Shown in pieces: positions 3,859 to 59,038 of a DNA stretch of 64,000 nt; the stretch's first letter is position 1, and each line of letters begins with the position of its first letter. Origin of the DNA: a virus; IMG/VR virus record IMGVR_UViG_3300036668_000183, positions 3,511 through 67,510 of that record. The stretch is one strand, 5' to 3'. The notes below the pieces were generated by a model. That model saw only the letters and a list, made by a program, of their open reading frames with translations. It was not told the origin of the DNA and made no database searches. A program made the translations under genes and the position numbers.

Positions 3859-4202
3859 TGGAATCGAATAACAATGACTACTCACCCGACAAGTGGGTTA
3901 TCGTAGAACTTAAATATGAAAATGATACCGTTTATAAGATATTGGCTAGTTGGTATGGTGGATTCGGTGGGTCTGATCAATGGAGACTTTCCTCTGGTGC
4001 GGTTCAGGTTACCGAGTACGATAATCATTATGAAATCTTGAACGAGTCGGGGTCTGTTTACTACTGCTATAAAAATGCCGAAGGATTTAGTGTCTACTCG
4101 AGCGGTATCTATGAAAGATTTGAGAAGAGTGTTCTAGAGGATAATAGTTATAAAATTTCACGAATTACGATAAAAGAGTTGGAAACTGCTTTACTTAAAT
4201 AA
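3858..4202 (+). CDS. conserved phage hypothetical protein
   Basis: PDKWVIV...WYGGFGGSDQWRLSSG...SGSVYYC; GAGG RBS. Confidence 0.7.
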   Translation: MESNNNDYSPDKWVIVELKYENDTVYKILASWYGGFGGSDQWRLSSGAVQVTEYDNHYEILNESGSVYYCYKNAEGFSVYSSGIYERFEKSVLEDNSYKISRITIKELETALLK

Positions 4203-4218
4203 AATTTTAGTCTATAAT
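4190..4218 (+). promoter_or_regulatory. sigma70-like early promoter
   Basis: TTTACT (4190-4195), 17 nt, TATAAT (4213-4218). Confidence 0.65.
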
Positions 4219-4249
4219 TACTGTATTGATAAATTAATTAGGACACAAA

Positions 4250-4420
4250 ATGAATCACGTATATATAGTTGCAGCGCATGACGGTTATATTTATGGGGTG
4301 TTTTCAGATCCTGTGTCGGCTAAAGATTATAGTGATCTTGTTACAGAGGCAACCGAGCTTGTCATTCGAGAAGTCAAAGGCGTAAAAGTTGGCGATTCAG
4401 AAGTATTGAATGTCTTATAA
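4250..4420 (+). CDS. small hypothetical protein (56 aa)
   Basis: ATG 4250 after AGGA, MNHVYIVAAHDGYIYGVFSD..., TAA 4420. Confidence 0.55.
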   Translation: MNHVYIVAAHDGYIYGVFSDPVSAKDYSDLVTEATELVIREVKGVKVGDSEVLNVL

Positions 4421-4428
4421 ATTTAAGT

Positions 4429-4902
4429 ATTGAGAATTTTAAAAAAGATATTTTAGAATATTTTGATACTTCAGAAGAAATGTTTGCTAGAGAAAAAGAA
4501 CTTGTAAATGACGAATTTTTATTAAGAGAAGATGTTTACAATATTCGAAGAGGTGGATTTGGTGGATTTGATTATATAAACAGTTCAGGAATGCCAAAGA
4601 TGTTAGGTAAACATCACAGTCCAGAAACTAAAAAAATATTATCAGAAGTTATGACTTGCAGATTTAAAAATGGTACAGCACCTAAAATGACTGAAGAAAC
4701 TCGTAAGAGTATATCAAAATCTAAGTTAGGTACAGAATATAAATCAAAGCCGCCAAAGTCAGAAGATCATAAAGAGAAAATTAGAATTTCTAATTTAGGT
4801 AAAAAACATAGTTTAATTACTTGTCCGCAGTGTGGGAAACAAGGGGGAGAAAGAGCAATTAAACGTTGGCACAGAGTATGTGCGGGTGTAACTCAGTGGT
4901 AG
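4429..4902 (+). pseudogene. 5'-truncated Seg-like GIY-YIG/NUMOD3 homing endonuclease
   Basis: In-frame IENFKKDILEYFDTSEEMFAREKELV...YNIRRGG (C-terminal half of GIY-YIG domain), three NUMOD3-like repeats (GKHHSPETKK, TEETRKSIS, SEDHKEKIR), CPQCGK knuckle; N-terminal GIY-YIG strands absent. Confidence 0.7.
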
Positions 4903-4956
4903 AGTGTCAGCCTTCCAAGCTGTTCGTCGCAGGTTCAATCCCTGTCACCCGCTCCA
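4882..4956 (+). tRNA. tRNA-Gly(TCC)
   Basis: GCGGGTG/CACCCGC acceptor, anticodon loop CT-TCC-AA, GGTTCAATCC T arm, encoded CCA. Confidence 0.93.
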
Positions 4957-5147
4957 TTAAGTTTGTTGTTTTGGAAAATTCGATGTATACGATATGCGCA
5001 CTCTCACTGTCGTCAATGTCTGCAGACACACGATACGAGTTGGACTATGACGAGATTGGATTGATCATCCTGTAAGTAAGCATAGAACGATAAAAGCCAA
5101 AGAATAGGGTTGAGCCTATTCCATAACAAAACAACAAACTTAATGGA
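4953..5147 (+). ncRNA. putative structured RNA 1 closed by a 21-bp perfect inverted repeat
   Basis: TCCATTAAGTTTGTTGTTTTG (4953-4973) pairs with CAAAACAACAAACTTAATGGA (5127-5147); several internal hairpins. Confidence 0.6.
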
Positions 5148-5152
5148 AACAT

Positions 5153-5326
5153 TATTATAGAGAGTCCTGTAACGAGGTGTCTAATCAACAACCTGACTGC
5201 CGAGGGTGACTTATCCCTTTCTTTTATTATGTCATGATCTGACATAGACCCGTGATAGGTCGTACATTAGATTGGGAGCGTGAAGTTATATGCGCTTAAA
5301 AGGATATGGTAGTACTCTCTATAATA
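5153..5326 (+). ncRNA. putative structured RNA 2 (homolog of 9642-9818)
   Basis: 13-bp perfect closing stem 5153-5165/5314-5326; internal hairpins; motifs and spacing shared with 9642-9818. Confidence 0.7.
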
Positions 5327-5330
5327 TTTT

Positions 5331-5407
5331 GCACCGTTAGATCAGTTGGTTAGATCGCTTGCCTGTCACGCAAGAGGCCAGGGGTTCAAGTCCCCTACGG
5401 TGCGCCA
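5331..5407 (+). tRNA. tRNA-Asp(GTC)
   Basis: Cloverleaf, CTTGC-CT-GTC-AC-GCAAG, CCA. Confidence 0.95.
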
Positions 5408-5413
5408 GTTCTA

Positions 5414-5489
5414 CTATCTATTGCGTAATCAGGTAGCGCACTGCGTTTGGGACGCAGGAGTCTAGGTTCAAATCCTAGTAGATAGACCA
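5414..5489 (+). tRNA. tRNA-Pro(TGG)
   Basis: CTATCTA/TAGATAG acceptor, CTGCG-TT-TGG-GA-CGCAG, CCA. Confidence 0.92.
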
Positions 5490-5496
5490 AGTTTAT

Positions 5497-5597
5497 GTGT
5501 TTGTAGCTCAGAGGAAGAGCGGGAACCGGTTCATGGCGAAGGGCCTAATTGCTGCCGGGTAAACCAAGCCGTTGGTTCGAGTCCAACCAGACACACC
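5497..5597 (+). ncRNA. tRNA-like RNA with expanded, non-canonical anticodon domain
   Basis: Acceptor GTGTTTG/CAGACAC, D arm GCTC/GAGC and T arm GTTGG-TTCGAGT-CCAAC intact; 50 nt between D and T arms; no canonical anticodon loop. Confidence 0.7.
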
Positions 5598-5601
5598 TAG
5601 T

Positions 5602-5707
5602 TAAGTGGTAATCGGTCAATCTGTGTAAAAGGTATTGCGGATCCTAAATCAGGATTGTTAAACATCGGAGCGCAAGTTAAATGAAATGTGTGTCAGCCTG
5701 CCACTTA
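5602..5707 (+). ncRNA. putative structured RNA 3
   Basis: TAAGTGGTA/TGCCACTTA closing stem; nested TTGCG/CGCAA and ATCCT/AGGAT helices; lies between tRNA genes. Confidence 0.45.
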
Positions 5708-5741
5708 TCAGTTGGAGTATCTTTAGTATACCGGTAGTAAA

Positions 5742-5829
5742 GGAAGGCCAAGCCAACTGGAGATGGCATCTGTCTGGAAAACAGCCGAGTGTTAATAGCG
5801 CCTTTAGAGTTCGACTCTCTAGCCTTCCG
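5742..5829 (+). tRNA. tRNA-Ser(GGA)
   Basis: GGAAGGC/GCCTTCC acceptor, CT-GGA-AA loop, long variable arm, G discriminator; CCA not encoded (TCA). Confidence 0.88.
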
Positions 5830-5841
5830 TCAAGTTTTAAT

Positions 5842-5916
5842 GGTGTCATTAGTGTAGTGGTAGCACCCAATCCTGTGACGATTGTAGTACCGGATCGATA
5901 CCGGTATGACACCCCA
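5842..5916 (+). tRNA. tRNA-His(GTG)
   Basis: G-1:C73 pair, CAATC-CT-GTG-AC-GATTG, CCA; atypical T loop ATCGATA. Confidence 0.9.
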
Positions 5917-5923
5917 AGTTTTC

Positions 5924-5997
5924 GCCCTACTAGTTAAGTGGTATAACTCCTGTTTTGTAATCAGGCGTCGGCAGTTCGATTCTGTCGTGGGGCACCA
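5924..5997 (+). tRNA. tRNA-Thr(TGT)
   Basis: Cloverleaf, TT-TGT-AA loop, CCA. Confidence 0.9.
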
Positions 5998-6004
5998 AGT
6001 TTAT

Positions 6005-6080
6005 TCCCCAATAGCTCAGTTGGTAGAGCATCGCACTGTTAATGCGAGTGTCGCTGGTTCAAACCCAGCTCGGGGAGCCA
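6005..6080 (+). tRNA. tRNA-Asn(GTT)
   Basis: TCGCA-CT-GTT-AA-TGCGA, G discriminator, CCA. Confidence 0.93.
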
Positions 6081-6105
6081 CTCACTTTATTATAAAGGAA
6101 CCATA

Positions 6106-6696
6106 ATGCCCTCAGTTTGGATCGTGTCAGATACACATTTTGGACACGCAGGAGTATGCAAGTTTATGCAGAATGATGGCGTGACTAAGCTGCGTCCATG
6201 GACCGACCCTAATGAAATGGACGAGTTCATGGTCAAGGCGTGGAATGACCGTGTCAAGCCAAATGACAAAGTGTATCACTTGGGCGATGTGGTAATTAAC
6301 CGCAAGGCATTATCTACTCTCGCTCGCCTTAATGGCGACAAGGTTCTTATTCGTGGTAACCATGACATCTTTCGTGACAGAGAGTACTCACAATACTTTC
6401 GCGAGCTTCGTGCTTACCATGTTATGAACGGGATGATTTTGAGTCATATTCCTATACATTCAGACAGCCTTGGTCGCTTTGGCGTTAACATTCACGGCCA
6501 TCTTCATAGCAACCGCGTGATGAAGAATGATCCGTTTGGTCATAGGGAACCATTCATCGATGTGCGCTACCATTGTGTATGTGTTGAACAAACGGACTTT
6601 GCTCCAATCCTCTTTGAAGATGTAGTAAAAAGGATTGAAGCTGAGGGTGGACAAGTGGGGTTTAAGAAAGGAAATGCGTCGACGGCAGCAATGTGA
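6106..6696 (+). CDS. calcineurin-like metallophosphoesterase
   Basis: SDTHFGH, HLGD, GNHD, SH, HGHLH motifs. Confidence 0.9.
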   Translation: MPSVWIVSDTHFGHAGVCKFMQNDGVTKLRPWTDPNEMDEFMVKAWNDRVKPNDKVYHLGDVVINRKALSTLARLNGDKVLIRGNHDIFRDREYSQYFRELRAYHVMNGMILSHIPIHSDSLGRFGVNIHGHLHSNRVMKNDPFGHREPFIDVRYHCVCVEQTDFAPILFEDVVKRIEAEGGQVGFKKGNASTAAM

Positions 6697-6753
6697 TGTA
6701 ATGCCTCTAATTCTTATGGGGATAGTTGAACTTTCTTTGATAGGATTTGTATT

Positions 6754-7050
6754 ATGGACGATACTAATAAAGTAGAAAGCATTATGCAGGAACTAAGTAA
6801 TACTTCCAACTCATTTAACGAAGCAATGGACGATATCAGAGATGATCGTGAGGCGTATTGGGATTCACTAACAAAGGATCAACAGCTGAAATGTTTTTGT
6901 GCAGTTGTTGAAAGAATTGTTAAAGGTGAATTAGAAGGGAATTCATATCGAAGCATGCTTTACAAAACATTCGAGTTTGGCAGAGAATCATACTGTCAAG
7001 CTCAAATGGCAGGGTTTTTAGATCTACACAATTCAATGTACGCAAAGTAA
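6754..7050 (+). CDS. conserved phage hypothetical protein
   Basis: ORF with AGGA RBS; GFLDLHN C-terminus. Confidence 0.65.
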   Translation: MDDTNKVESIMQELSNTSNSFNEAMDDIRDDREAYWDSLTKDQQLKCFCAVVERIVKGELEGNSYRSMLYKTFEFGRESYCQAQMAGFLDLHNSMYAK

Positions 7051-7144
7051 CTGATCAAAAGTTTTATTGATTTGGTCATGTGTTTTATATTATGATTGCA
7101 ATGTACCGCTGTGGTACGTGAATTTATCATAGGAGTTTTGACAT

Positions 7145-7465
7145 ATGAGTATGAGACAGAAAATATTTACGGCACTGGTTATTGAACGTAAGCAAAAGAC
7201 AGCAGATCAATTTGCAGCTCAACTTGGTACCACTACAAAAACAGTTGCAGCTCGTATTAGTGAGATTCGTGACTCAGGATACGTTATCAAGACTGCTCGC
7301 AGGGTCGATACAAAAGGCCGAGTGAAGTACTTTTATCGTCACAGCAATCCAAATCGCTTGATGGTTCAAGCAGGAAGGGCAATGATGAAAGCATTTGGTA
7401 TGGTAGGACAACGTTTAATGAGGGGGCCTTTGGGCCCCCTTCTAGATCTTTTGCAACGGAACTGA
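7145..7465 (+). CDS. winged helix-turn-helix DNA-binding protein
   Basis: TADQFAAQLGTTTKTVAARISEIRDSGYVI HTH pattern; AGGAG RBS. Confidence 0.7.
   Translation: MSMRQKIFTALVIERKQKTADQFAAQLGTTTKTVAARISEIRDSGYVIKTARRVDTKGRVKYFYRHSNPNRLMVQAGRAMMKAFGMVGQRLMRGPLGPLLDLLQRN
7421..7452 (+). terminator. GC-rich hairpin, probable intrinsic terminator
   Basis: AGGGGGCC-TTTG-GGCCCCCT with an imperfect T tail; overlaps the 3' end of the wHTH ORF. Confidence 0.55.
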
Positions 7466-7470
7466 ATTAT

Positions 7471-8070
7471 ATGGACGACGTCGATTGCTGGAACGTGGTA
7501 GATCCTATAGACTTATGGGTAACAGATAAACTCCTTCTCGCCAAGCAATTGGGATACTATTGTGGACCAGCTGGCTTGGTACCTGAAAGAGATGGTGAAT
7601 ATATTGTCAGACCATGTGTCAACTACAGGATGATGAGCAGAGGTGCTGAGATAATGACTCTGGGACCTTCTTATGGTGATATAATCCCCAATGGGTTCTT
7701 TTGGTGTGAGGAGTTCAAAGGCCGCCATATCACATATGATTATCACTTTGGTGTTCAAACACTAGCTGCTGAAGGGTTTCGTAATGACCTTAACAGGCTA
7801 GATAGGTTTTCAAAGTGGGTAAAAGTTGTTGATACCTATTCGCCGCCTAAAGTATTGCTAAATATTGTTATGAAATATGAGTGGATAAACCTGGAAGTTA
7901 TTGACGGTAAGGTAATTGAAGTTCATTTTCGATTTAATGATGACTTCAATAATCACACATCAACAACAATTATCCCTGTTTGGAAAGAACACTACGACAA
8001 AGACTTGCACGGAGGTAAAAACTTTTATCCAAGTGAGTGTGGAGATCGAATAGGATTTTTATTAGAGTGA
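7471..8070 (+). CDS. hypothetical protein, possible ATP-grasp-like fold
   Basis: YIVRP...G, WCEEFKG, INLEVIDGKVIEVHFR resemble ATP-grasp elements. Confidence 0.5.
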   Translation: MDDVDCWNVVDPIDLWVTDKLLLAKQLGYYCGPAGLVPERDGEYIVRPCVNYRMMSRGAEIMTLGPSYGDIIPNGFFWCEEFKGRHITYDYHFGVQTLAAEGFRNDLNRLDRFSKWVKVVDTYSPPKVLLNIVMKYEWINLEVIDGKVIEVHFRFNDDFNNHTSTTIIPVWKEHYDKDLHGGKNFYPSECGDRIGFLLE

Positions 8071-8098
8071 CATTAACTTTATTTGATATAGGACTAAC

Positions 8099-8290
8099 AT
8101 GAATGTAATCAGCAATTACTTTAGTGATGATAGAACAAAACAAGCAATAGTCAATATCCTTGACAGTATTCCTGTAGTTAAGTTTTATCAGGACAATATA
8201 AAATTGGAGACACGAGTGTTGATTGGTCTCACTCTTCAACAGGCTGAGGATATCGCAGTAAACTATATCCAAGGTACCTTTAAAATATAG
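8099..8290 (+). CDS. hypothetical protein
   Basis: AGGA RBS; ORF track. Confidence 0.55.
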   Translation: MNVISNYFSDDRTKQAIVNILDSIPVVKFYQDNIKLETRVLIGLTLQQAEDIAVNYIQGTFKI

Positions 8291-8301
8291 TAGTGGAGGT
8301 T

Positions 8302-8619
8302 ATGATGAAACCATTTTTAACAGCATTAGCTATCTTAGTGTCGCCTTTGGTATATGCTGATGATAGTAAAGTTGAAGTTGTAAACATGCCAATATACTGT
8401 GTTACAGATAAGAAACTATCTGATACAGTTATAGAGTTTAAAGAGATTCCTGTTGCAGAAGGAATTAGTTTGAGAAAAATTGATGGTAAGGAATATAAAA
8501 GTCCGTTAGTGATCCTTATAAACAAAGACAATTCTAGTTATACAATTGCTGAAAAGGTATCAGAAACCCACTTCTGTATCATTGCTATGGGTGAGAACTT
8601 TCGGCCAGTTGCTAGGTAG
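8302..8619 (+). CDS. hypothetical exported protein
   Basis: GGAGG RBS; signal-peptide-like MMKPFLTALAILVSPLVYA. Confidence 0.65.
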   Translation: MMKPFLTALAILVSPLVYADDSKVEVVNMPIYCVTDKKLSDTVIEFKEIPVAEGISLRKIDGKEYKSPLVILINKDNSSYTIAEKVSETHFCIIAMGENFRPVAR

Positions 8620-8620
8620 T

Positions 8621-8956
8621 ATGAAAGGTTATGATCGTATGAAGTTAATCCAAAGGTGCTCTGGACAGGGTATTGTAACAGGTATTGTCGGAACAATCGT
8701 TGCTCAGCAAATCTTTCGTCCACCTGTTGTAGTGGTTCCTCAGGGAGTGCCCATGCAACCAGGATACGCTCCAGGATATGCTCCTCAAGGAGTGCCTATG
8801 CAACCAGGATACGCTCCAGGATATGCCCCACCTATGGTTCCTTATTATCCGGGTACCGTGTATCCAGATTTCGTTTACCGTCCAATGTTTCGAGACGTCG
8901 ATGTGTGGATTCCAGAGTGTCAATGCTACCGGACAATGCGCGTTCAAATAAGGTAA
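8621..8956 (+). CDS. Pro/Tyr-rich hypothetical protein
   Basis: Hydrophobic GIVTGIVGTIVA, PGYA repeats, CxC C-terminus; start uncertain. Confidence 0.55.
   Translation: MKGYDRMKLIQRCSGQGIVTGIVGTIVAQQIFRPPVVVVPQGVPMQPGYAPGYAPQGVPMQPGYAPGYAPPMVPYYPGTVYPDFVYRPMFRDVDVWIPECQCYRTMRVQIR
8738..8827 (+). repeat. 45-bp tandem duplication (PQGVPMQPGYAPGYA x2)
   Basis: 8738-8782 and 8783-8827 differ only at synonymous sites. Confidence 0.9.
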
Positions 8957-8962
8957 GGATTT

Positions 8963-9037
8963 GCGCCCATCGTATAATGGATAATACAGGGGATTTCTAC
9001 TCCCTAAATGTGGGTTCAATTCCTGCTGGGCGTACCA
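8963..9037 (+). tRNA. tRNA-Arg(TCT)
   Basis: Cloverleaf, TT-TCT-AC loop, CCA. Confidence 0.92.
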
Positions 9038-9072
9038 ACATCAAATTTTATAAACCAAAAGGATAATACACT

Positions 9073-9546
9073 ATGAAGAATTGGGAAGACTATGTAGGGC
9101 TTCAACCGTCTAAGGCATTTGAATCAGATAAACATATTATTTTTTACTTGAGTTGCGAACAAAAAGTTTCAGAAGAAGATGGCAAAGAATACCCAATAAT
9201 TTCTGTAAAAAGATTTATGTTAGAGCATGAATTATTTGAGTTTAACAAAAAAGAAGTTGGTGATATTGTTGAGTCTGTAATTCGTAAATCCTTTCCTTTA
9301 TTTAAGCCTGAAGTAGAAGGAGGTCTTTTAGAAGATATTAAAAGACATGCATCGTATGAGGTACAGAAAAACACAAGGATAGGAGGAGCCAATACCGAGT
9401 TTGAAGATTATGTAATGTATGTTGGTCCTACTATTTATGATCGTCCAATATTTGTTGGAGAACTGAAAGGCATGTATGCTGTCATGCCTCACCCTGAAAT
9501 TGAAAAGTATGGTTACCGAGTATGCGAATCGGTATCTTCTGATTAA
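9073..9546 (+). CDS. hypothetical protein
   Basis: AAGGA RBS; ORF lying between two tRNAs. Confidence 0.65.
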   Translation: MKNWEDYVGLQPSKAFESDKHIIFYLSCEQKVSEEDGKEYPIISVKRFMLEHELFEFNKKEVGDIVESVIRKSFPLFKPEVEGGLLEDIKRHASYEVQKNTRIGGANTEFEDYVMYVGPTIYDRPIFVGELKGMYAVMPHPEIEKYGYRVCESVSSD

Positions 9547-9557
9547 TCATAAGGAAT

Positions 9558-9635
9558 GTGTGGATGCCCGAGTGGCCAAAGGGAACAGTCTGCAAAACTG
9601 TAAAGTCGTGAGTTCGAATCTCACTCCACACTCCA
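9558..9635 (+). tRNA. tRNA-Cys(GCA)
   Basis: GTGTGGA/TCCACAC acceptor, ACAGT-CT-GCA-AA-ACTGT, U discriminator, CCA. Confidence 0.92.
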
Positions 9636-9641
9636 CATAGT

Positions 9642-9818
9642 AAATATATCATCGAGAGTCCGAGGGCGAAATACTTAACCAGTAGCTTGACTGTCTAAAG
9701 TTGGTACGCGCCTGGTAACTTTGTTTAAAATCGATCTGTGGTGGATCATAAAGTTACTCAGGCTCCTTTAAGTTATATGAGGATTAAACGGGTTGACAGT
9801 ACTTTCGATGATATATTT
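9642..9818 (+). ncRNA. putative structured RNA 4 (homolog of 5153-5326)
   Basis: 18-bp closing stem 9642-9659/9801-9818 (one G-U), long internal hairpin, shared AAGTTATATG loop. Confidence 0.7.
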
Positions 9819-9838
9819 TTACGCTAATAGGGACTTTC

Positions 9839-10270
9839 ATGAAATTTTAAATCGATACCGAGTTCAATGATTTTAGAGGGGAATTGATTTCCATGGCATT
9901 GGTAGCAGAGGATGGCACCGAGTTCTATGAAGTACTTGAATGTACTGATCCTACTGAATGGGTCGCGACAAATGTTATGCCAATTCTTGAAAAAAGTCCA
10001 ATCAGTAAAGATCAATTTCAATTAAAGTTGCAAGACTTTTTAAATGAGTTTGATTCTATTCATATCATCGCAGATTACCCAGATGACATAAAGTATTTTT
10101 GTGAGTCCTTGATTCTAGACGCTGGCTTGTCTATGCACTACCCCAAACTCACAATGGCAATACGTCCTGAACTATCTTCTAGGGGTAGCAAAGTACTTCA
10201 CAACGCTCTTCATGACGCTAGAGCAATTCTGATGGATGACTTAGAACAGACCTATCCTGATAAAAAGTGA
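9839..10270 (+). pseudogene. DEDDh 3'-5' exonuclease interrupted by in-frame TAA at codon 4
   Basis: ATG AAA TTT TAA ATC GAT ACC GAG TTC = MKF*IDTEF in frame with ORF 9884..10270 ending HNALHDA. Confidence 0.75.
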
Positions 10271-10308
10271 TTGGTGTGATAATTTTTTACATCGATACTG
10301 AGTTTAAA

Positions 10309-11904
10309 TTAAGATATTATTAGGTGTGGTGCAGCCTGAAATTCCGATGCAATCTTTTTTGGATCTGCCTTACCTAGTTTGTTAGTTATTATATTTTTCA
10401 TTTTGTCATAATCGGTTTCATCAAAGTATATGTGTGACAACTTGGTAATCAACCCAAAAACTGTAATAAACAACTTTCTTTTAAAGTGAAGTTGAAAAGA
10501 CTCCCCACCATGTATAAAAAAGAAACAAATTTGTGCATGATCATAGTGGGCGCTAAGAACTGCAATACGAGTCGACTCGTATTTTTTAGAGTATCCCCTA
10601 ACCTCATCTACGACTAGCATTCTGTAGGTGTCATAAAAGTTTTCTGATTCTAATCCACTTATTTTCTGAAACTTATTAAAAAAGTTTATGATCTTTATGT
10701 TCTTTTTCTTTTTATAAAGAATGTCTCGACTTTCTGTAAGCGCCCCAGCAGAGACGTAAGAAGTGGAGCATTCCTTAAATGCTTCTGGGTCTAATACTTT
10801 TAGTCGATCACACACCTCTTCAAACTTAGCTCTTCTAAGCTTTCCTAATTTTACCGACATCGAATTATACATTTGATACTTTCGGCAAATCTCTTCAAAA
10901 ACACCACTAGAAACACCACCTACCCATTGAGTATCTTTTAAATGCTTTGTAGAAGCCGCAAATTGACCATTCCACCCAGCCCCATATCCTTGTGCATACA
11001 ATAAAAAATTTAGATCATATTTCATCATAGGTGTTTGACTCTTTGAGCTTCTTAACTTTGAATACCTAAACTTAACTGGCAATTCCCAATTTAATTTTTC
11101 AAAGGTTATAAAGGATTTAAAGTCAATATCAATGACAGTATCAATATACCGTTTAGTGTGTTGAGGTTCATCAAGGATTAATGCCAAGAATTTTATGAAT
11201 GGATCAATGTCTGGAAGAATTTCACCCCTTAACTTTATGTCTACTATTTTTATGTTTGGGATTGCAGAAATAGTAGTCGGCAATTTTAAAGAAATTGGTA
11301 TAAGATCCCTAGGCTCAAAATACTTTCGTATGATGTTAGCATAACTATTTGACTGTGGAGAATTTGATAAAGAGTTGTTTAGAATTGATTCTGGGTCAGT
11401 GACATATTTTTTTAAGTCCGAAGTGATTGCACCTATCTTACTTTTTTTAACGGCCATAATATCGACCGAAGAAAGAATGTCTATCTTATATGACAGATCA
11501 AAGGCTTTTTTTATGTTAGTAAGGGAAATGTCTTTTACGAGTAATACGAATGGGTCATTTTGGTCAAGAAATTTATAATCTTTTAAAGAACCTTTAAAAA
11601 CCTTTTTTTCTACACATGCCTTAGCGACCCTATAGACTTTTTTTGCTGTGGTGTGATATGATTCTTTTTTAGTCTTTTCTGTTAGGGTCACTTTAAATTC
11701 TTTCTTTACACCATTTAAAGGAAACCCTGCAGATAAGTATTTTCTTCGGTACTCTTGAACGTTGGTTGTCCCCATGAATAAACGATAAAACCCTATTGCA
11801 TGTTCGCTCTCTTCCATGCCAACTTTTTCGGTGTAGTTTGGATTTTCTGCAAAATATGCAAATGCCAAACACTGTGCAAGTTCTTTATAGTCCGCCTTAG
11901 CCAT
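10309..11904 (-). CDS. late-expressed 531-aa protein, possible PD-(D/E)XK nuclease-like
   Basis: Start moved to ATG 11904 (AGGA RBS, TATAAATA upstream); E...SVDIMAV...LIPISLK pattern. Confidence 0.55.
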   Translation of the reverse strand: MAKADYKELAQCLAFAYFAENPNYTEKVGMEESEHAIGFYRLFMGTTNVQEYRRKYLSAGFPLNGVKKEFKVTLTEKTKKESYHTTAKKVYRVAKACVEKKVFKGSLKDYKFLDQNDPFVLLVKDISLTNIKKAFDLSYKIDILSSVDIMAVKKSKIGAITSDLKKYVTDPESILNNSLSNSPQSNSYANIIRKYFEPRDLIPISLKLPTTISAIPNIKIVDIKLRGEILPDIDPFIKFLALILDEPQHTKRYIDTVIDIDFKSFITFEKLNWELPVKFRYSKLRSSKSQTPMMKYDLNFLLYAQGYGAGWNGQFAASTKHLKDTQWVGGVSSGVFEEICRKYQMYNSMSVKLGKLRRAKFEEVCDRLKVLDPEAFKECSTSYVSAGALTESRDILYKKKKNIKIINFFNKFQKISGLESENFYDTYRMLVVDEVRGYSKKYESTRIAVLSAHYDHAQICFFFIHGGESFQLHFKRKLFITVFGLITKLSHIYFDETDYDKMKNIITNKLGKADPKKIASEFQAAPHLIIS

Positions 11905-15944: not shown

Positions 15945-16280
15945 ATTGTTGTATGAAGTGAGGCGAACACAAGGCAAGACGCGGGTGCAAATCCCACCAC
16001 CTCCACCAAAAGAATTCTTCACCCTTATACGGTACAGTCGCCTAGACTAAAGACGTATATAAAGAGTTCTTTTGATGGGGGTGAACTAGGATCGATTGCT
16101 ACGTCAGTAACTGAATGGACAACTCGGTAATGCTAAAACCGTTAGGGTTAGGAGTTTCCTGACCGAAGAAGCGAAACAAATAAATGCAGCCAATAACAGC
16201 ATTTTCGAAGCAGAACGCTTAGTAGCGTAATCACTTCTGGGGTTTTGTTGATTGTCCTTATTATCCAATCAATCACCACT
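15945..16280 (+). ncRNA. ssrA: circularly permuted (two-piece) tmRNA
   Basis: T arm + CACCTCC-A-CCA (ends 16008) precedes GGGGGTG (16077-16083), which pairs with it including G3-U70; tag frame 16186-16230 AANNSIFEAERLVA*; outer ends approximate. Confidence 0.88.
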
Positions 16281-47615: not shown

Positions 47616-50312
47616 ATGGCAACAATTATAAAACGGTTAGTCAAAGGCACACCTCTTACGAATGCTGAAGGAGATGCTAACCTAGACGCATTTAATACAG
47701 AAAAACTAGAACGCAATGGGTCAATACCCATGACGGGTAATTTGAACACCTCTGGCATTGTACCAATAAGCGAAGCCAATGGTCTAAAAATCTTTAATGA
47801 GAATGACGAACTTGTCGCGACCTTTGGTGCAGGTAATACAAAAGATATTGTGGTTGAAGGTAATATAAACGTTGGTGGCGAGGCAAGCGGAGATCTTAAT
47901 CTAAACGGTGGTGATATATCTGTACGAAATATATATCTTTCTGGTCAGATTATATCATCTCAGCTTGGTGCACAATATAAAGTATCAGGCGACGGTGAAA
48001 CTTTTCAGGGTACTGGCGAAAATTTATCAAATAAACTTGTAGTCACATTAGATGTCATCTTACGATTGATTACTATAGAAGGCACATTTGATTCCGGGCA
48101 AGAAATTGTAGGATCAGTATCTGCTACAACTGGAACGGTCACAAAGGTCTTTGGTAATGACATATACGTCAAATTAGATGATCCTGCTGAATCATTTACC
48201 ATAGGGGAAACTATATCCTATGCATCAAATACTGGTGTGTTAAGTGTTGTCATAGATTCATCTACCTTTGAAATTGGTCATGAAGTAAAAATATTTGGCG
48301 CATCTGTCCCTGGGAGCCCTACTCCTATTATTACTCCTGCCTCATCGGCAGCTAAGATTGGCACTGGTTCAGGGTTTACATATTACTATTGGATTGCGCA
48401 GTTTAACTTTAATGATGGTAGAATATCAAGTGCAACAAAAATAAGCACTAGTATTGTTCATAAAGTTGCGTCAGAGTTTAATGAGACTGATAATATTTCA
48501 TTGATATTAAATCGTACAAGCGCAAGTTATGGTATTGCGATATATAGAGCAACTCAAGATTCTATCGACCAATCAGTTCTTATTGATGTACTAGGTCCAG
48601 GGCAATTAGGCGGGGCTGCTTCTAATATATCATATATAGACTATGGTCGTTATTCTAATACAGAGTGGGCAGGTAAAGATGATTTTGGCAACTATACTGC
48701 TAATTCTGGTATCATACACTTCCCGTTATCTGCATCGGCAACACCTTTGAAGGGTTGGGTTACTGCTACAGTTGAAAGCATAGACAATACAGAGCAAGTA
48801 ACATTTGATGCACAATATGAAATGAACTCAGGTTCTTCATTAGAATTTGTACATAATAATACTGCTGGTCTTCAGCAGTTTATAAATGACCAACGGGATT
48901 TAAATGTCAAGGAAGCAAACTTTTCTAATGGTGTCTATTATACATCTAAACTGAAAGTCCCTTCGAACTTTGAGATGACAGGCTCAGGCAAGCAAACCGT
49001 ATTTAAACAAATCCCTTGGAATTTTGAATACTGGAATGATGTAGTTAACCCTAACGAAAAGGGTAATATATTTGTATCAGAAGAGTCGGCTCCATTTAGT
49101 GTTTCGTTTTCTAACTTGACTGCAGATGGTAACTTTACTAATAATGCAAGATATGCAGAAGCCAACGCAACATACCTAATCAATATATCAAATGGCGAGA
49201 ATATTTCATTCTCTGATATTCAGGTCGTTAATTCTACGGGTGGTGGCATTCGTTCGTATCAGTGTGATTATCTTCGTCTTCAGAATTGTGAAATATTAAA
49301 TGGTGGCGGTGTATCCTATTTGGGTAACGAGTTGTCTCCATTCTTTTCTGGTGGTTCTAGATACCTTACAGTAACGAATAACTTGTTTGAAAACTTCTTG
49401 AGTCCTGTTGATGTATCTGTGACTAATATCGGAACAGTAATTGGTAATACGGTTCGCAACTGCGGATCGGGTCTATTGATATATGGTTCAGCCAATTTAC
49501 TTTCATCGCCTAATTTATTGATGGGACCTGATAATGAGTACCTGCCTTCTCCTGATACAATGGACTCAGATTATAATGCCGTAAATATTTCGCTCGATAG
49601 CGGTGTGGATTATATCTCTGCAGCATATCTCTATATGGAACGTGGCGTTGTGTCGTACCTCGGTTCTGGTGATAGGAATAGTATTCCTGGGACTGCCGTA
49701 GAATTGACTGCTGACATTAGGATGTTGACCAAGTTAAATAATGATGAGCAACTTCCTGTTGACTATTCCGAAACATTGCGTGGTACGCAATTTATTAATT
49801 TCATATCTGCTGATACAGGTGACTATGGAAGAAACAATGGTTATTTCCAGTTCAAGATACTCGGTACTGATATTAACGAGATTCCTACTCTATCAGAGTT
49901 GATTACAGAGAATTCAGGAATACTTGTTGCAGGAGAGCAGATCATGGGCTTGGCATATCGAGTCATAGGTACAACTTATACAAATACTGATGTTGGCGAA
50001 AGAATTGCAATAGAGGAATCTATATTTTCTGCAAGTGGCAGTGATAAGTTCATTACCATTACGTTAAGTGATCCTTCACAATATGCTACATTTGTTTCGG
50101 GTGATACAGTAAAAATATTTACTCATACATCTACACCAGATATAAATAGTACAGAGAGTGTCATTGTAGAAAAGATTGTATCTGGCTTGGCGCGCAAACT
50201 AAAAATTCAATTACCAGCAGAAGTTAATTTATCTGGTTCAGTAAATGGTGGTGTAACAGGTTATGTCGCTATCAGAAAATCATTCATACTTGCCAAAGGA
50301 AGAATTCATTAA
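47616..50312 (+). CDS. fibre/spike protein with parallel beta-helix-like region
   Basis: R..KG.PLT..E.DAN fibre N-terminus; I.NC.I.N / VTNN.FEN beta-helix pattern. Confidence 0.65.
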   Translation: MATIIKRLVKGTPLTNAEGDANLDAFNTEKLERNGSIPMTGNLNTSGIVPISEANGLKIFNENDELVATFGAGNTKDIVVEGNINVGGEASGDLNLNGGDISVRNIYLSGQIISSQLGAQYKVSGDGETFQGTGENLSNKLVVTLDVILRLITIEGTFDSGQEIVGSVSATTGTVTKVFGNDIYVKLDDPAESFTIGETISYASNTGVLSVVIDSSTFEIGHEVKIFGASVPGSPTPIITPASSAAKIGTGSGFTYYYWIAQFNFNDGRISSATKISTSIVHKVASEFNETDNISLILNRTSASYGIAIYRATQDSIDQSVLIDVLGPGQLGGAASNISYIDYGRYSNTEWAGKDDFGNYTANSGIIHFPLSASATPLKGWVTATVESIDNTEQVTFDAQYEMNSGSSLEFVHNNTAGLQQFINDQRDLNVKEANFSNGVYYTSKLKVPSNFEMTGSGKQTVFKQIPWNFEYWNDVVNPNEKGNIFVSEESAPFSVSFSNLTADGNFTNNARYAEANATYLINISNGENISFSDIQVVNSTGGGIRSYQCDYLRLQNCEILNGGGVSYLGNELSPFFSGGSRYLTVTNNLFENFLSPVDVSVTNIGTVIGNTVRNCGSGLLIYGSANLLSSPNLLMGPDNEYLPSPDTMDSDYNAVNISLDSGVDYISAAYLYMERGVVSYLGSGDRNSIPGTAVELTADIRMLTKLNNDEQLPVDYSETLRGTQFINFISADTGDYGRNNGYFQFKILGTDINEIPTLSELITENSGILVAGEQIMGLAYRVIGTTYTNTDVGERIAIEESIFSASGSDKFITITLSDPSQYATFVSGDTVKIFTHTSTPDINSTESVIVEKIVSGLARKLKIQLPAEVNLSGSVNGGVTGYVAIRKSFILAKGRIH

Positions 50313-56530: not shown

Positions 56531-59038
56531 ATGGCATTTGAAACAAACGTATATTACGGATACAAGGCATCTAATAATCTTTCTGATGTTATCGATGGAG
56601 AAGATGCTCTATTTAAAATAGGGTTGAATATTGGCGACCTTAATATCATACGTGGAGTTGCAGGTGAGTTAGGTGCAACACGTGATGATCTGGTTACACT
56701 GTCTAATTTGACTTCGCCAATTTATAGAACTTTGGATAGATTTTTATCGGAAAGTTCACAGTATGCAGGTATATTATCTAGGGCAGGTGGAACAGACAAT
56801 TCACTTCAGGGTAATCTAGAGGTCAATGGACCAATTGGTGCCTCGGCCATTCGATATAATTATGTTAATACAGATACTGACCAGATTGCCTTTGCAGATA
56901 TTTCTACATCTCGTGTATCGGCATGGTCGTCTATTAGTCCAGCAGGATCTTCTCCTTCTGAATCTGATCCGATCTTCTATGGTTCAGAAGTCAAGATATA
57001 CGATGGTGGTACTGTTACAACAGACAAGATTCAGTGGGGAGAAAATGCAGTCCCTAAATTATATACTGCAGAAGTTCCTACTCATGCAATTACGACTACA
57101 ATCAATGGACAACAGGTTAAGTTATATGCCATGAAGTCCATTCCACTTAAATTTAGTGGTTTTTTTAGAAACTTTGATAGTATTGTAGCAGTTAATCCAA
57201 TAACTGGTATCAACATCAGTTGGCGAATTGTCAATCAGTCAAATGCGTTAGATATTCAATCATATCCGAATCGAGGCACTACATTAAATTATCGTAGTGT
57301 TCAGTCTGCACCTCGTACAATTGAAATATATTATCCTCCAGATAATTTTACATCATTGACTCTGACTGGTGTAAACCTGCGTACTCTTCCGTTAGCTGAA
57401 TTGCCTAATCTTACACAATTAAATATTTCATTTAATGATATACGAACTGTCCCTAATCTGAATATATTTTCGCCTAACCTTTTGACGCTTAACATATTTG
57501 GTAACAATCTTTACTTAGCAGAAAGCGACAACCTAAAGAAACTGAACTTAGATGTGCTAAATCACTTTCCTACAAGTCTTGCATCTATTAATATGTATGG
57601 CACGTTCTTTGGTTCGATTCGCTGGGTCAATGGTTCTGGTATAGAAGTTGCTCCGGCAAGTGTAGGCGCAGTATCTGTATTTAAGTATCGCTTTCCTTCG
57701 CTGATCACGTTTAATGTAGGACGTGGTTCTGGTCCATTTTTTAACCCAGACTTATATGATCCTGTGTGTCATTTACCACAGATGCCAGATACTTGTCAAA
57801 ATTATTATGTAGGAAATAATGACTTTAGAACAGTTCCTGCTACAGGACTAAAAGATTTACCAGAATTAAGAAATATTGATTTGGGTGGTAATAGAAATTT
57901 AAGCGATGCAACATTTTCTATTGCCTCGACTAATATACAGACCGTCAATATCAGTAGTACAAATTTGCCCATGCCAGATTTAAGAAGCAGAACACTCCTA
58001 ACAAGTTATGGTCATACTAGTAATAGCAACTCTAGTCCGTTTCATGTTAGTACATCTTCTGATGTGTCGTACAAGTTTTCTGGTTGTACTGCTCTTACTG
58101 GTATTAGCATAAATGCGTCTGCTGTTAGTGGATTTATACCAAAGTTCAAGAACAATCAATCACTGACTTCATTTGATGCCTATGCTGCGCAATCAATAAC
58201 AGGCGGCAGACCAGATAATGGTGAGCATGGTTATGCAGATGGTACAACTTATGTGTTGTACAAGGATACCTTTAATAACGCCAAGGACATATCATTTTTC
58301 CGAGTATTGTCAAACAGTCTTTTAGTTGGAAAGGGATTTGAACCCGACACGTTTAAAAACCTAAAGAATCTTAGCTATCTCTATTGGTATTCATATGGAA
58401 GAACTGGCGATTCATTAACCGATGTTCCTTTGCCAGATATATCAAGTTGCCCTGCACTGCGTTATTTTATAATGCCAGTAAACAAATTCCGTGGGTCAAT
58501 TCCTACATTTACGTCTAATCAAAGCATTCTCTATATTGATGTATCAAATAATGAACTCTCTGGTGGTGTTCCTTTCTTCAATAACAAGTTAGCATTAAAT
58601 TACTTTTATGCACATAATAATGCATTGACATCGTTTAATGGCTTCATAAACACACCTAACTTGTATCATGTTTATTTGTATAATAATCAGATAACAGGAT
58701 CTATACCTGCGTTGTCGGAAGACTCGACTAATATAGATATACTATATCTCTATAATAATCAATTCACTGATTATGTAAGTGGATCCTTTAAAGGACTCCG
58801 AAGACTGGCATTCCTCGATGTATCGAATAATGACTTATCTGAGTCTAATTTAAATAATATCATTGAAGATCTGTACGAAAATTATATCCTTGCTCCTCGA
58901 AGTAGAGTTAATGTGAATCTTCGTGGTCAATCAAATGCGCCTGGGTATAGTCCTTCTGAAATTGGTACGACTCGTGAACAAGAAATATACGAAAAGATAA
59001 CATTCCTCCGTCAACGTGGTTGGCAAATTTCATGGTAA
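56531..59038 (+). CDS. leucine-rich repeat protein
   Basis: Many LxxLxLxxNxL repeats (LTQLNISFNDI, LYHVYLYNNQITGSIP, LAFLDVSNNDL). Confidence 0.88.
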   Translation: MAFETNVYYGYKASNNLSDVIDGEDALFKIGLNIGDLNIIRGVAGELGATRDDLVTLSNLTSPIYRTLDRFLSESSQYAGILSRAGGTDNSLQGNLEVNGPIGASAIRYNYVNTDTDQIAFADISTSRVSAWSSISPAGSSPSESDPIFYGSEVKIYDGGTVTTDKIQWGENAVPKLYTAEVPTHAITTTINGQQVKLYAMKSIPLKFSGFFRNFDSIVAVNPITGINISWRIVNQSNALDIQSYPNRGTTLNYRSVQSAPRTIEIYYPPDNFTSLTLTGVNLRTLPLAELPNLTQLNISFNDIRTVPNLNIFSPNLLTLNIFGNNLYLAESDNLKKLNLDVLNHFPTSLASINMYGTFFGSIRWVNGSGIEVAPASVGAVSVFKYRFPSLITFNVGRGSGPFFNPDLYDPVCHLPQMPDTCQNYYVGNNDFRTVPATGLKDLPELRNIDLGGNRNLSDATFSIASTNIQTVNISSTNLPMPDLRSRTLLTSYGHTSNSNSSPFHVSTSSDVSYKFSGCTALTGISINASAVSGFIPKFKNNQSLTSFDAYAAQSITGGRPDNGEHGYADGTTYVLYKDTFNNAKDISFFRVLSNSLLVGKGFEPDTFKNLKNLSYLYWYSYGRTGDSLTDVPLPDISSCPALRYFIMPVNKFRGSIPTFTSNQSILYIDVSNNELSGGVPFFNNKLALNYFYAHNNALTSFNGFINTPNLYHVYLYNNQITGSIPALSEDSTNIDILYLYNNQFTDYVSGSFKGLRRLAFLDVSNNDLSESNLNNIIEDLYENYILAPRSRVNVNLRGQSNAPGYSPSEIGTTREQEIYEKITFLRQRGWQISW

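What the first reader, a model, noticed from the sequence alone, without database searches (positions are those of the whole stretch)
5153..9818. Two homologous ~175-nt structured RNAs beside tRNAs (5153-5326 and 9642-9818) with covarying helices
Seen: both have a long closing stem ending GAGAGT/ACTYTC, then CC and exactly 30 nt to a helix that covaries (ACTGCC 5196-5201 with GGTAGT 5308-5313; ACTGTC 9690-9695 with GACAGT 9795-9800) and stacks on the closing stem. Both have a last hairpin with different stems (AGCG/CGCT versus TCCT/AGGA) but the same 12-nt loop TKAAGTTATATG, followed by exactly 17 nt to the closing stem. A 5' hairpin loop (TAATC / TAACC) could pair with the loop GTTA as a pseudoknot. 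The middles are unrelated hairpins. Inference: one family of compact, tertiary-folded phage ncRNA processed from tRNA transcripts (ribozyme, decoy for anti-phage RNases, or protein sponge). I do not recognise the family.
Basis: partly seen in the sequence, partly recalled or inferred. Interest (0 to 1): 0.82.

Follow-up and report, generated by a model that had tools for sequence, protein, structure and literature searches.

The report
Knotted small RNA in phage tRNA clusters
The two stretches are genes for one family of tightly folded non-coding RNAs that some uncultivated lake phages carry among their tRNA genes; the family is absent from the RNA catalogue searched, and its job is still unknown.

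Summary
5153-5326 and 9642-9818 are two copies of one structured RNA, read on the tRNA strand of a T4-like-baseplate phage contig (67.5 kb, about 39% complete). A covariance model built from them found relatives in other viral and metagenome contigs, in about 7 sequence lineages. All but two directly abut tRNA genes.

The closing stem P1, a 5' hairpin P1a and helix P2 are 95.5% paired. Ten of 25 pairs show changes on both sides (0 of 500 shuffles reach this).

Instead, the 5' hairpin loop pairs with the loop of a middle hairpin that is homologous across members, not "unrelated". Three complementary versions occur: ACCA:UGGU, AUCA:UGAU and UGACUA:UAGUCA.

- **No known family:** Rfam 15 gave no match, and the model hit nothing in the T4 rnaC/rnaD region or the T5 stable-RNA region.
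- **Patchy:** 2 of 80 related loci carry it, and 0 of 5 large related genomes.
- **Dispensable:** natural variants have lost half of copy A together with seven tRNA genes.
- **Expression:** no data could be obtained.
- **Function:** unknown. My best guess is a stable RNA released by tRNA processing that acts in trans.

This scan had already flagged the same family on other DNA (e1-5786949, e1-5786958, e1-5788987). I class it as a new member of a known kind, the phage tRNA-cluster stable RNAs.

The parts
5153..5326 (+). Copy A of the RNA, 174 nt from the first to the last base of P1. It lies 5 nt after another stem-closed element (4953-5147) and 4 nt before tRNA-Asp (5331).
   Evidence: Model R1 206.8 bits and R2 169.6 bits; tRNA positions.
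9642..9818 (+). Copy B of the RNA, 177 nt. It starts 6 nt after tRNA-Cys (9558-9635) and ends 20 nt before the ATG (9839) of a DEDD-type exonuclease-like gene.
   Evidence: R1 206.2 bits and R2 130.6 bits; tRNA; gene.
5153..5165 (+). Copy A, P1 5' strand. It pairs with 5314-5326. The inner six pairs, GAGAGU/ACUCUC, are nearly invariant in the family.
   Evidence: 13 pairs, 96.5% of cells paired, 5 pairs changed on both sides. L156 has GAAAGT/ACTTTC.
5175..5194 (+). Copy A, hairpin P1a: AGG-TGT / ACA-(A)-CCT, with the 7-nt loop CTAATCA at 5181-5187.
   Evidence: helix 2: 4 of 6 pairs changed on both sides, 88.9% of cells paired.
5196..5201 (+). Copy A, P2 5' strand ACTGCC. It pairs with GGTAGT 5308-5313, including one G-U pair. 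P2 stacks on P1 through the continuous 3' strand.
   Evidence: helix 3: 100% of cells paired, one pair C-G/U-A, one G-C/G-U.
5202..5219 (+). Copy A, conserved GAGGG followed by a possible short hairpin P3 (GAGGG/CCCTT). Tentative: CCC could instead pair with GGG 5274-5276.
   Evidence: Folds; RNAalifold on the class III sequences.
5228..5246 (+). Copy A, lineage-specific hairpin TATGTCA-TGATC-TGACATA.
   Evidence: Absent at this place in the other lineages.
5247..5261 (+). Copy A, hairpin P4: GACC-CGTGATA-GGTC. Its loop UGAU is complementary to AUCA (5184-5187) of the P1a loop.
   Evidence: The stem differs in every lineage while pairing is kept.
5277..5296 (+). Copy A, hairpin P5: AGCG-TGAAGTTATATG-CGCT.
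5297..5307 (+). Copy A, conserved joining strand J5/2, TAAAAGGATAT (family consensus UWAAAMGGRNWU).
   Evidence: Alignment A5; the pattern search found only family members plus one chance hit.
9672..9684 (+). Copy B, hairpin P1a inner stem TAC/GTA with loop TTAACCA (9675-9681).
9690..9695 (+). Copy B, P2 5' strand ACTGTC. It pairs with GACAGT 9795-9800.
9710..9763 (+). Copy B, long arm GCCTGGTAACTTT / AAAGTTAC-TCAGGC. It encloses hairpin P4, GATC-TGTGGTG-GATC (9733-9747), whose UGGU is complementary to ACCA (9678-9681).
   Evidence: MFE and centroid folds; interior fold; coordinates.
9764..9783 (+). Copy B, hairpin P5: TCCT-TTAAGTTATATG-AGGA.
9784..9794 (+). Copy B, joining strand J5/2: TTAAACGGGTT.

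Best explanation
Both stretches are genes for one family of 142-184-nt structured non-coding RNAs. Certain uncultivated phages with a T4-like baseplate keep them inside or beside their tRNA gene clusters, on the tRNA strand.

Shown here: the fold.
- A long closing stem P1 whose inner six pairs, GAGAGU/ACUCUC, are almost invariant.
- A small hairpin P1a inserted at the joint with a second, stacked helix P2 (ACUGYC/GRCAGU).
- A variable arm that ends in hairpin P4, then a last hairpin P5.
- A conserved 11-13-nt joining strand (UWAAAMGGRNWU).
- The P1a loop is complementary to the P4 loop, in three co-varying versions.

Inferred, with my odds:
- The RNA is made as part of tRNA precursor transcripts and cut out by the host's tRNA-processing enzymes (RNase P at the next tRNA, 3' trimming after the previous one). 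P1 shields both ends (about 0.7).
- It then acts in trans as a stable, compact RNA. Its invariant core (the 12-bp P1/P2 stack, CC, GAGGG and the joining strand) is the working surface that binds a partner common to many hosts, most likely a protein or RNA of the tRNA/translation apparatus. P5 and the extra hairpins are lineage-specific (about 0.35).
- It is an accessory gene, not an essential one.

The confidence given is for the whole statement. That this is a real structured RNA family I put at about 0.93.
For: Family and fold:
- Model R1, built from the two copies, found L078:3625-3813 at 81.8 bits among 80 loci that share the neighbouring phosphoesterase gene.
- Pattern scans of viral and metagenome contigs, checked with R1/R2, added L086, L089/L088, L090/L091, L093/L095, L097, L098 and variants, L114 and L156, at 83-190 bits (R1) and 82.7-176.9 bits (R2). 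L156 and L095 were judged by eye and by regex only, not by a model.
- On 9 sequences, 95.5% of 221 cells pair and 10 of 25 pairs changed on both sides. 0 of 500 shuffles reach either figure, and slid controls give 25.7-47.1% paired.
- G-U pairs in P1 of copy B and P2 of copy A fit only the + strand. Reverse-strand scores are 17-23 bits against 170-207.

Loop-loop pairing: 12 of 13 members have the exact complement of P1a loop positions 4-7 in a hairpin loop of the arm. The 13th, copy B, was missed only by my script's loop rule and is visible at 9733-9747. Complementarity holds within classes and never across them.

tRNA context:
- Copy A ends 4 nt before tRNA-Asp; copy B starts 6 nt after tRNA-Cys.
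- L078 lies between tRNA-Arg and tRNA-Thr.
- L089 abuts tRNA-Asn.
- L093, L097 and L098 lie between tRNA-Asn and tRNA-Met, with P1 reaching into the GCCA end of tRNA-Asn.

Accessory status:
- 2 of 80 related loci carry it.
- 0 of 5 large related records carry it, three of them at least 95% complete. The positive control found it in 5 of 5 known carriers.
- L100 and L105 carry a deletion running from the middle of copy A to the phosphoesterase start.

Precedent: GenBank annotates stable RNAs of unknown function in the tRNA regions of T4 and T5.
Against: - No transcript evidence. Four metatranscriptome runs covered only tRNA-like parts of 4880-6100 and nothing of 4962-5289.
- No partner was identified.
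- Copy B has no tRNA downstream, so its 3' end cannot be set by RNase P.
- L090 appears to have its own sigma-70-like promoter (my reading), and ARAGORN finds no tRNA in that locus. The tRNA link is therefore not absolute.
- Dense conservation in joining strands is more typical of ribozymes and aptamers than of protein-binding RNAs (general knowledge, not tested).
- Only about 7 independent lineages exist. The loop-loop pairing rests on two compensated positions plus a 2-bp extension.
- A generic search for the longest complement of the P1a loop anywhere in the interior is not significant for 4-5-nt matches (98 to 1868 of 2000 shuffles reach the observed length).
Confidence: 0.5

Rival explanations
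1. Self-assembling RNA. The P1a-P4 loop complementarity is intermolecular, so the RNA forms dimers or closed rings, as a small counterpart of the ROOL and GOLLD assemblies. The two paralogs in this genome are kept from mixing by different kissing codes.
For: - ROOL and GOLLD are phage RNAs of unknown function 'often near tRNA islands'. In ROOL, a kissing loop earlier predicted as tertiary from covariation proved to be quaternary (passages of 10.1101/2024.12.08.627333).
- Copies A and B in one genome use different pairs, AUCA:UGAU and ACCA:UGGU.
- Covariation cannot tell intra- from intermolecular pairing.
Against: - At 142-184 nt the RNA is three to five times smaller than ROOL or GOLLD.
- The two loops can plausibly meet within one molecule.
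- No sequence or model similarity to ROOL or GOLLD.
- Nothing was tested experimentally.
Confidence: 0.12
2. An RNA that works by itself: a self-cleaving or other ribozyme, or a ligand-binding aptamer. Its invariant junction nucleotides would form an active site or pocket.
For: About 30 nearly invariant nucleotides sit in junctions and in the helix ends next to them, alongside a tertiary loop-loop contact (alignments).
Against: - No match to any ribozyme or riboswitch family of Rfam 15, even at E up to 10 on the isolated elements.
- There is no expression platform and no regulated downstream gene for copy A.
- The long, perfect P1 is unlike a switch helix.
- No conserved candidate cleavage site could be named.
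Confidence: 0.13
3. A cis-acting element of tRNA operons. It would be a folded spacer that guides or insulates processing of neighbouring tRNAs or ends the transcript, with no function once released.
For: - It directly abuts tRNAs in most loci.
- P1 of the L093 group includes the GCCA end of tRNA-Asn.
- P1 of copies A and B is followed by 4-5 T.
- Many unrelated stem-closed elements share this context: 4953-5147 here, and the earlier notes listed.
Against: - A spacer would not need about 30 invariant nucleotides, a conserved loop-loop contact, or near-identical P5 loops in two paralogs.
- L090 and L114 are not flanked by ARAGORN-called tRNAs.
- The terminator scan did not call either P1.
Confidence: 0.12
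4. A scaffolded antisense RNA. The variable P5 loop (or other variable parts) base-pairs with mRNAs of late virion or fibre genes.
For: - 5279-5293 has a perfect 15-nt complement at 52841-52855, on the sense strand of the 983-aa gene 50312-53263.
- The L089-type RNA has a 16-nt complement inside a 952-aa virion structural gene of its own genome.
- The P5 loop is 11 of 12 identical between the two paralogs although their stems differ.
Against: - Calibration is weak: 3.75% of 400 random 160-nt windows of this window, and 1.75% of 400 in the other genome, reach such lengths.
- The two RNA segments involved are not homologous, and the second is largely inside helices.
- The two target proteins are not similar by tblastn.
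- The RNAs of G001 and G003 have no match over 12 nt, though those records are incomplete.
- Copy B would pair over only 10 nt.
Confidence: 0.06
5. A DNA-level inverted-repeat mobile element (MITE-like), or chance similarity without RNA function.
For: The distribution is patchy, positions among tRNAs differ, there are two copies in one genome, and the terminal inverted repeats are long.
Against: - The outer repeat arms differ completely between copies yet stay complementary.
- G-U pairs fit only one strand.
- Internal helices and loops co-vary.
- The element always has the orientation of the tRNAs.
Confidence: 0.03

Closest known systems
Phage T4 stable RNAs, species 1 and 2 (rnaC, rnaD; annotated in NC_000866)
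   Same: - Small stable RNAs of unknown function inside a phage tRNA gene cluster, on the tRNA strand and directly abutting tRNA genes (annotation).
- The phage has a T4-like baseplate.
- A homing-endonuclease-like ORF sits beside the cluster: segB in T4, and the NUMOD3 ORF 4480-4902 here.
   Different: - Model R2 with filters off gives nothing above 8.3 bits in the 10-kb T4 region, and only 4.5-5.1 bits over rnaC.
- T4 rnaC ends in a tRNA-like T arm (GGGTTCGAATCCCGG, read). This family has none.
- Sizes are 139 and 119 nt, against 142-184 nt here.
Phage T5 stable RNAs of the tRNA region (RNAI, RNAIII, RNAIV, RNA1, RNA2, RNA2H, RNA3, RNAX; annotated in NC_005859)
   Same: Annotated 'stable RNA with unknown functions', interleaved with tRNA genes. 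RNA2H is 172 nt and closed by a long stem.
   Different: No R2 match over any of them. The best hits in 26 kb are 15.4 bits or less, on short AT-rich palindromes.
ROOL (RF03087) and GOLLD (RF01998) RNAs
   Same: Phage and prophage RNAs of unknown function, often near tRNA islands, held together by kissing loops (passages read).
   Different: Those RNAs are several-fold larger. Rfam scans gave no match at gathering thresholds or at E up to 10. Multimer formation has not been tested here.
Unnamed look-alike RNA in related phages (L061:2592-2795, L022:4770-4975, L180:5380-5590, L182:117-323)
   Same: - Also stem-closed and between tRNAs.
- Shares the ACUGU../..ACAGU helix, the AGGAA..AUAACC stretch after it, and CUUAAAC before its 3' strand.
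- R2 scores are 29.3, 17.2, 33.7 and 27.4 bits over the full model.
   Different: About 205 nt long. The 5' hairpin and the CC lie in a different order, and GG sits between the helix and the closing stem. This is a sister family at best and is not described anywhere I searched.
Candidate structured RNAs of IMG/VR (catalogue of PMC10690425)
   Same: Predicted from the same kind of viral contigs. The catalogue includes tRNA-like and other intergenic motifs (passages read).
   Different: That catalogue's motifs are 29-151 bases long.

Membership tests
Any Rfam 15 family (including ROOL, GOLLD, 6S, Y RNA/YrlA, RNase P, riboswitches, small self-cleaving ribozymes) | Covariance-model score at or near the family's gathering threshold | tested here: not met
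   Whole window at gathering thresholds: only tRNAs and a permuted tmRNA. Window 4700-10000 at E<=10: nothing over the two elements. Each element alone at E<=10: one 12.4-bit reverse-strand hit to STnc310 (gathering score 40) for copy A, and none for copy B.
T4 rnaC/rnaD | Location inside a phage tRNA gene cluster, on the same strand | tested here: met
T4 rnaC/rnaD | Sequence and structure homology | tested here: not met
   R2 with filters off on NC_000866 66000-76000: best 8.3 bits, and 4.5-5.1 bits over rnaC.
T5 stable RNAs | Sequence and structure homology | tested here: not met
   R2 on NC_005859 22000-48000: no hit over the eight annotated RNAs.
tRNA or tRNA-like RNA | Cloverleaf with a T arm and acceptor stem | tested here: not met
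   ARAGORN and the Rfam tRNA model call the neighbouring tRNAs but not 5153-5326 or 9642-9818.
Y RNA / YrlA with Ro (Rsr) | Match to the YrlA model, and a TROVE-domain protein in the genome | tested here: not met
   The only YrlA hit is 23.9 bits over tRNA genes at 5967-6029. There is no TROVE match in the 67.5-kb record, but that record is about 39% complete, so absence of the protein is inconclusive.
Riboswitch | Aptamer followed by an expression platform upstream of a regulated gene | tested here: not met
   Copy A is followed by a tRNA 4 nt later. P1 is a 13-18-bp stem, and most homologs lie between two tRNAs.
MITE-like DNA inverted-repeat element | Conserved terminal inverted repeats, either orientation, target-site duplication | tested here: not met
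   The outer arms differ between copies with compensatory changes, G-U pairs fit one strand only, and the element always has the tRNA orientation.
Stable RNA released from tRNA precursors | A discrete transcript with ends set by tRNA processing | not testable with these tools
   The only RNA runs that could be laid covered tRNA parts alone, and they were contigs, which show no ends.

The most novel reading that the evidence does not exclude
The loop-loop pairing is quaternary rather than tertiary. These 142-184-nt RNAs would then assemble head-to-tail into dimers or closed rings, a miniature of the ROOL and GOLLD RNA-only assemblies that also travel with phage tRNA genes. Phages carrying two copies would keep them as separate assemblies by giving each its own kissing code (AUCA:UGAU against ACCA:UGGU), while both display the same outward-facing P5 loop.
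Probability: 0.12. Interest if true: 0.8.

Novelty: new member of a known kind. Interest (0 to 1): 0.5.

Why it matters
Phage tRNA clusters have been known since T4 and T5 to hold stable RNAs whose function is still annotated as unknown. ROOL and GOLLD show that such RNAs can be elaborate machines.

This family is small enough (about 170 nt) for chemical probing, crystallography or cryo-EM. It has a clear conserved core and a simple loop-loop contact that can be tested by mutate-and-rescue. It also comes as two natural paralogs in one genome.

If its partner or activity were found, that could show what this whole class of tRNA-cluster passengers does for phages. As it stands, it adds one well-supported family to the RNA catalogue but no new principle.

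Tried and rejected
- **Rfam.** Four scans found nothing over the elements.

- **Cultured phages.** blastn ('distant') of 4800-6100 and 9500-9900 against 50,697 GenBank phage records matched tRNA parts only. The L097-type, L089-type and L180 look-alike RNAs gave no match.

- **Bacterial and archaeal genomes.** A 40-nt degenerate pattern hit 12 stretches, and 0 of 12 were confirmed by R2. This tests only that exact pattern.

- **Chance pattern hits set aside.**
  - L084, L087, L092: coding-looking sequence and no R1 hit.
  - L094, L096: by eye and no R2 hit.
  - L157: by eye only.
  - L201-L205: no R2 hit.
  - 33 of the 44 metagenome stretches: no R2 hit at E<=0.01.

- **Expression.** One run search found DNA holders in salt-lake metagenomes and six RNA runs with a 0.04 share of words. 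Four were laid. Their contigs cover tRNA-like parts only, mostly from other organisms, and nothing at 4962-5289. This is no evidence either way.

Rejected because the last loop is not conserved.

- **Generic longest-complement test for the P1a loop.** Not significant for 4-5-nt matches. The support for the kissing loop comes from the homologous hairpin and class-specific complementarity. I could not obtain one alignment with all three classes in register, so the tool's pair-count controls were not run on the kissing pairs.

- **Other possible pairings seen by eye.** None shows consistent pairing or covariation:
  - CC with the GG of the joining strand;
  - AUCC before the arm with GGAU of the joining strand;
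  - CCGTTT/AAACGG in L093 only.

- **Resemblances recalled from memory, not tested beyond Rfam.** None fits in order or pairing, and all were rejected:
  - RNase P CR-I 'GAAAGUCC';
  - the group I intron R/S elements;
  - the Y RNA 'GGUCCGA' stem;
  - the hammerhead core;
  - the hairpin ribozyme loops.

- **Ro/TROVE protein.** None in the record, which is incomplete.

- **Antisense idea.** See the rival explanations. Calibration makes it weak.

- **Promoter and terminator scan of 4200-10400.** Nothing decisive.

- **Literature.** Two full-text searches turned up no description of this family. For PMC10690425 I saw the listing and passages; its supplements were closed. For 10.1101/2024.12.08.627333 I saw the listing and passages.

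Full report
**What is in the window.** The window is 64 kb of a 67.5-kb viral contig that CheckV estimates at about 39% complete. It encodes T4-type baseplate wedge proteins, a tape-measure-like protein and tail proteins. It also carries ten tRNA genes and a permuted tmRNA. The finding's two stretches lie on the tRNA strand. Copy A (5153-5326) sits between another stem-closed element (4953-5147) and tRNA-Asp (5331). Copy B (9642-9818) starts 6 nt after tRNA-Cys and ends 20 nt before an exonuclease-like gene.

**Checking the observation.** The shared 5' motif occurs twice against 0.01 expected. Both fold better than shuffles, with z of -2.28 and -4.36.

**Relatives.**
- A model of the two copies (R1) searched over 80 loci that share the neighbouring phosphoesterase gene at 76-98% identity. 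It found the family in only two: L004, a near-identical partial copy A, and L078, a diverged homolog at 81.8 bits lying between tRNA-Arg and tRNA-Thr.
- Degenerate-pattern scans of IMG/VR and of JGI metagenome contigs, each checked with R1 or the nine-sequence model R2, added more members:
  - L086;
  - L089/L088;
  - L090/L091;
  - the L093/L097/L098/L156 group;
  - L114;
  - several duplicates.
- I count about seven independent lineages.
- Twelve pattern hits in bacterial and archaeal genomes were all rejected by R2.
- blastn against GenBank phages found nothing.
- Other carriers have one copy per record, 5 of 5 records. This window's phage has two.

**Structure.**
- On nine sequences, P1 (13 pairs counted), P1a (6) and P2 (6) are 95.5% paired. 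Ten pairs changed on both sides (0 of 500 shuffles), and slid controls give 25.7-47.1% paired.
- The inner P1 (GAGAGU/ACUCUC) and P2 (ACUGYC/GRCAGU) are nearly invariant in sequence. Where they do vary, they stay paired: G-U in copy B, A-U in L156, and C-G/U-A and G-U in P2.
- The G-U pairs and the much weaker reverse-strand scores fix the RNA to the tRNA strand.
- Inside P2 lie a conserved GAGGG, a variable arm, a last hairpin P5 and a conserved joining strand UWAAAMGGRNWU.
- The arm always ends in a hairpin whose stem differs in nearly every lineage (for copy B):
  - GACC/GGTC
  - GATC/GATC
  - GAAC/GTTC
  - TAC/GTA
  - TGC/GCA
  - GAGG/CCTC
  - CGG/CCG
  - GGAA/TTCC
  - GGG/CCC
- That hairpin's loop holds the exact complement of positions 4-7 of the P1a loop:
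  - ACCA:UGGU in five lineages;
  - AUCA:UGAU in copy A and L086;
  - UGACUA:UAGUCA (6 bp; 5 bp in L098/L113) in the L093 group.
- Complementarity is class-specific in the 13 x 13 cross table.
- How GAGGG, the following C-rich run and the G-rich run before P5 pair remains unresolved.

**Comparison with what is known.**
- Rfam 15 has no match, even for the isolated elements at E up to 10.
- The closest precedents by context are the stable RNAs annotated in the tRNA regions of T4 (rnaC, rnaD) and T5 (eight RNAs, one of 172 nt). R2 matches none of them.
- ROOL and GOLLD share the habit of sitting near phage tRNA islands and use kissing loops, some of them between molecules. They are far larger and unrelated in sequence.
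- A roughly 205-nt look-alike in related phages (L061, L022, L180, L182) shares the P2 helix and flanking motifs and scores 17-34 bits. It may be a sister family.
- This scan had already noted the same family on other DNA: the L089 type in e1-5786949 and e1-5786958, and the L093 type in e1-5788987 and e1-5788997.

**Distribution and dispensability.**
- The family is patchy: 2 of 80 related loci carry it, and 0 of 5 large related records, three of them at least 95% complete.
- Thirteen relatives of the exonuclease gene downstream of copy B have neither a tRNA called by ARAGORN nor an R2 hit within 1.5 kb on either side of it.
- Two metagenome contigs (L100, L105) carry a deletion that removes the 3' half of copy A and the whole downstream tRNA cluster.
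- The RNA therefore behaves as an accessory cassette that travels with tRNA genes.

**Function.**
- Nothing here shows what the RNA does.
- No RNA-seq data covered it.
- No Ro-type protein is encoded in the fragment.
- A 15-nt complement of copy A's P5 loop lies in a fibre-like gene, and the L089 type has a 16-nt complement in a virion structural gene. Both are only marginally beyond background, at 3.75% and 1.75% of random windows.
- My committed reading is a stable RNA released by tRNA processing that acts in trans through its invariant core.
- The rivals are an RNA-only assembly, a ribozyme or aptamer, a cis-acting processing element, and an antisense scaffold. Each is listed with what would refute it.

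**Verdict.** This is a real, conserved, tertiary-folded ncRNA family that is new to the catalogue I searched. It belongs to the long-known but unexplained class of phage tRNA-cluster stable RNAs. Interest is moderate.

Noticed in passing
window 4953-5147: A second, unrelated stem-closed element sits directly upstream of copy A. Its 21-bp closing stem begins at the CCA end of tRNA-Gly. A similar element (same 'GGAAAATTC' start after a long stem) lies at about L078:2928-3150.
   Followed up: partly
window 5497-5595: A 99-nt tRNA-like sequence scores 42.7 bits with the Rfam tRNA model, but ARAGORN does not call it. The anticodon arm appears to be replaced by a longer structured insert.
   Followed up: no
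window 5597-5741: An unassigned 145-nt stretch lies between the tRNA-like element and tRNA-Ser. Its first 14 nt (5597-5610) repeat the 5' part of tRNA-Thr (5930-5943), so it may be a decayed or remodelled tRNA.
   Followed up: no
window 9839-10270: The DEDD-type exonuclease-like gene just downstream of copy B has an in-frame TAA as its fourth codon (9848-9850; reads MKF*IDTEF). A relative, L164, reads MKLYIDTEF with TAC (Tyr) there. Possible causes: a nonsense mutation, read-through, or an assembly error.
   Followed up: partly
L061:2592-2795, L022:4770-4975, L180:5380-5590, L182:117-323: A roughly 205-nt stem-closed RNA lies between tRNAs in related phages. It shares the ACUGU/ACAGU helix and the CUUAAAC strand with this family and scores 17-34 bits with R2. 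It is a possible sister family and is not in Rfam by name as far as I could tell; I did not scan these loci with Rfam.
   Followed up: partly
L100:6249-6365 (minus strand), L105:9862-9978: Close relatives of this phage carry a deletion joining the middle of copy A (after TCTTTT) to the start region of the phosphoesterase gene. It removes seven tRNA genes and the other small RNAs.
   Followed up: partly
window 52841-52855 and 57117-57129: There is a 15-nt perfect complement of copy A's P5 hairpin inside the fibre-like gene 50312-53263. A 12-13-nt same-sense copy of the P5 loop lies inside gene 56531-59038. About 4% of random windows reach a 15-nt complement.
   Followed up: yes
window 4480-4902: An ORF with a NUMOD3 motif (the DNA-binding module of homing endonucleases) runs into the start of tRNA-Gly. 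This recalls segB in the T4 tRNA cluster.
   Followed up: no
L090:13291-13645: In this contig the RNA follows a sigma-70-like TTGACT/TAAACT pair. About 80 nt downstream there is a tRNA-like T arm that ARAGORN does not call. AhpC- and AhpD-like genes (judged from the translations, not scanned against a family library) lie 0.6-1.7 kb upstream.
   Followed up: no
window 15947-16230: A phage-encoded circularly permuted tmRNA (Rfam RF04321, 75.1 bits; ARAGORN tag AANNSIFEAERLVA).
   Followed up: no
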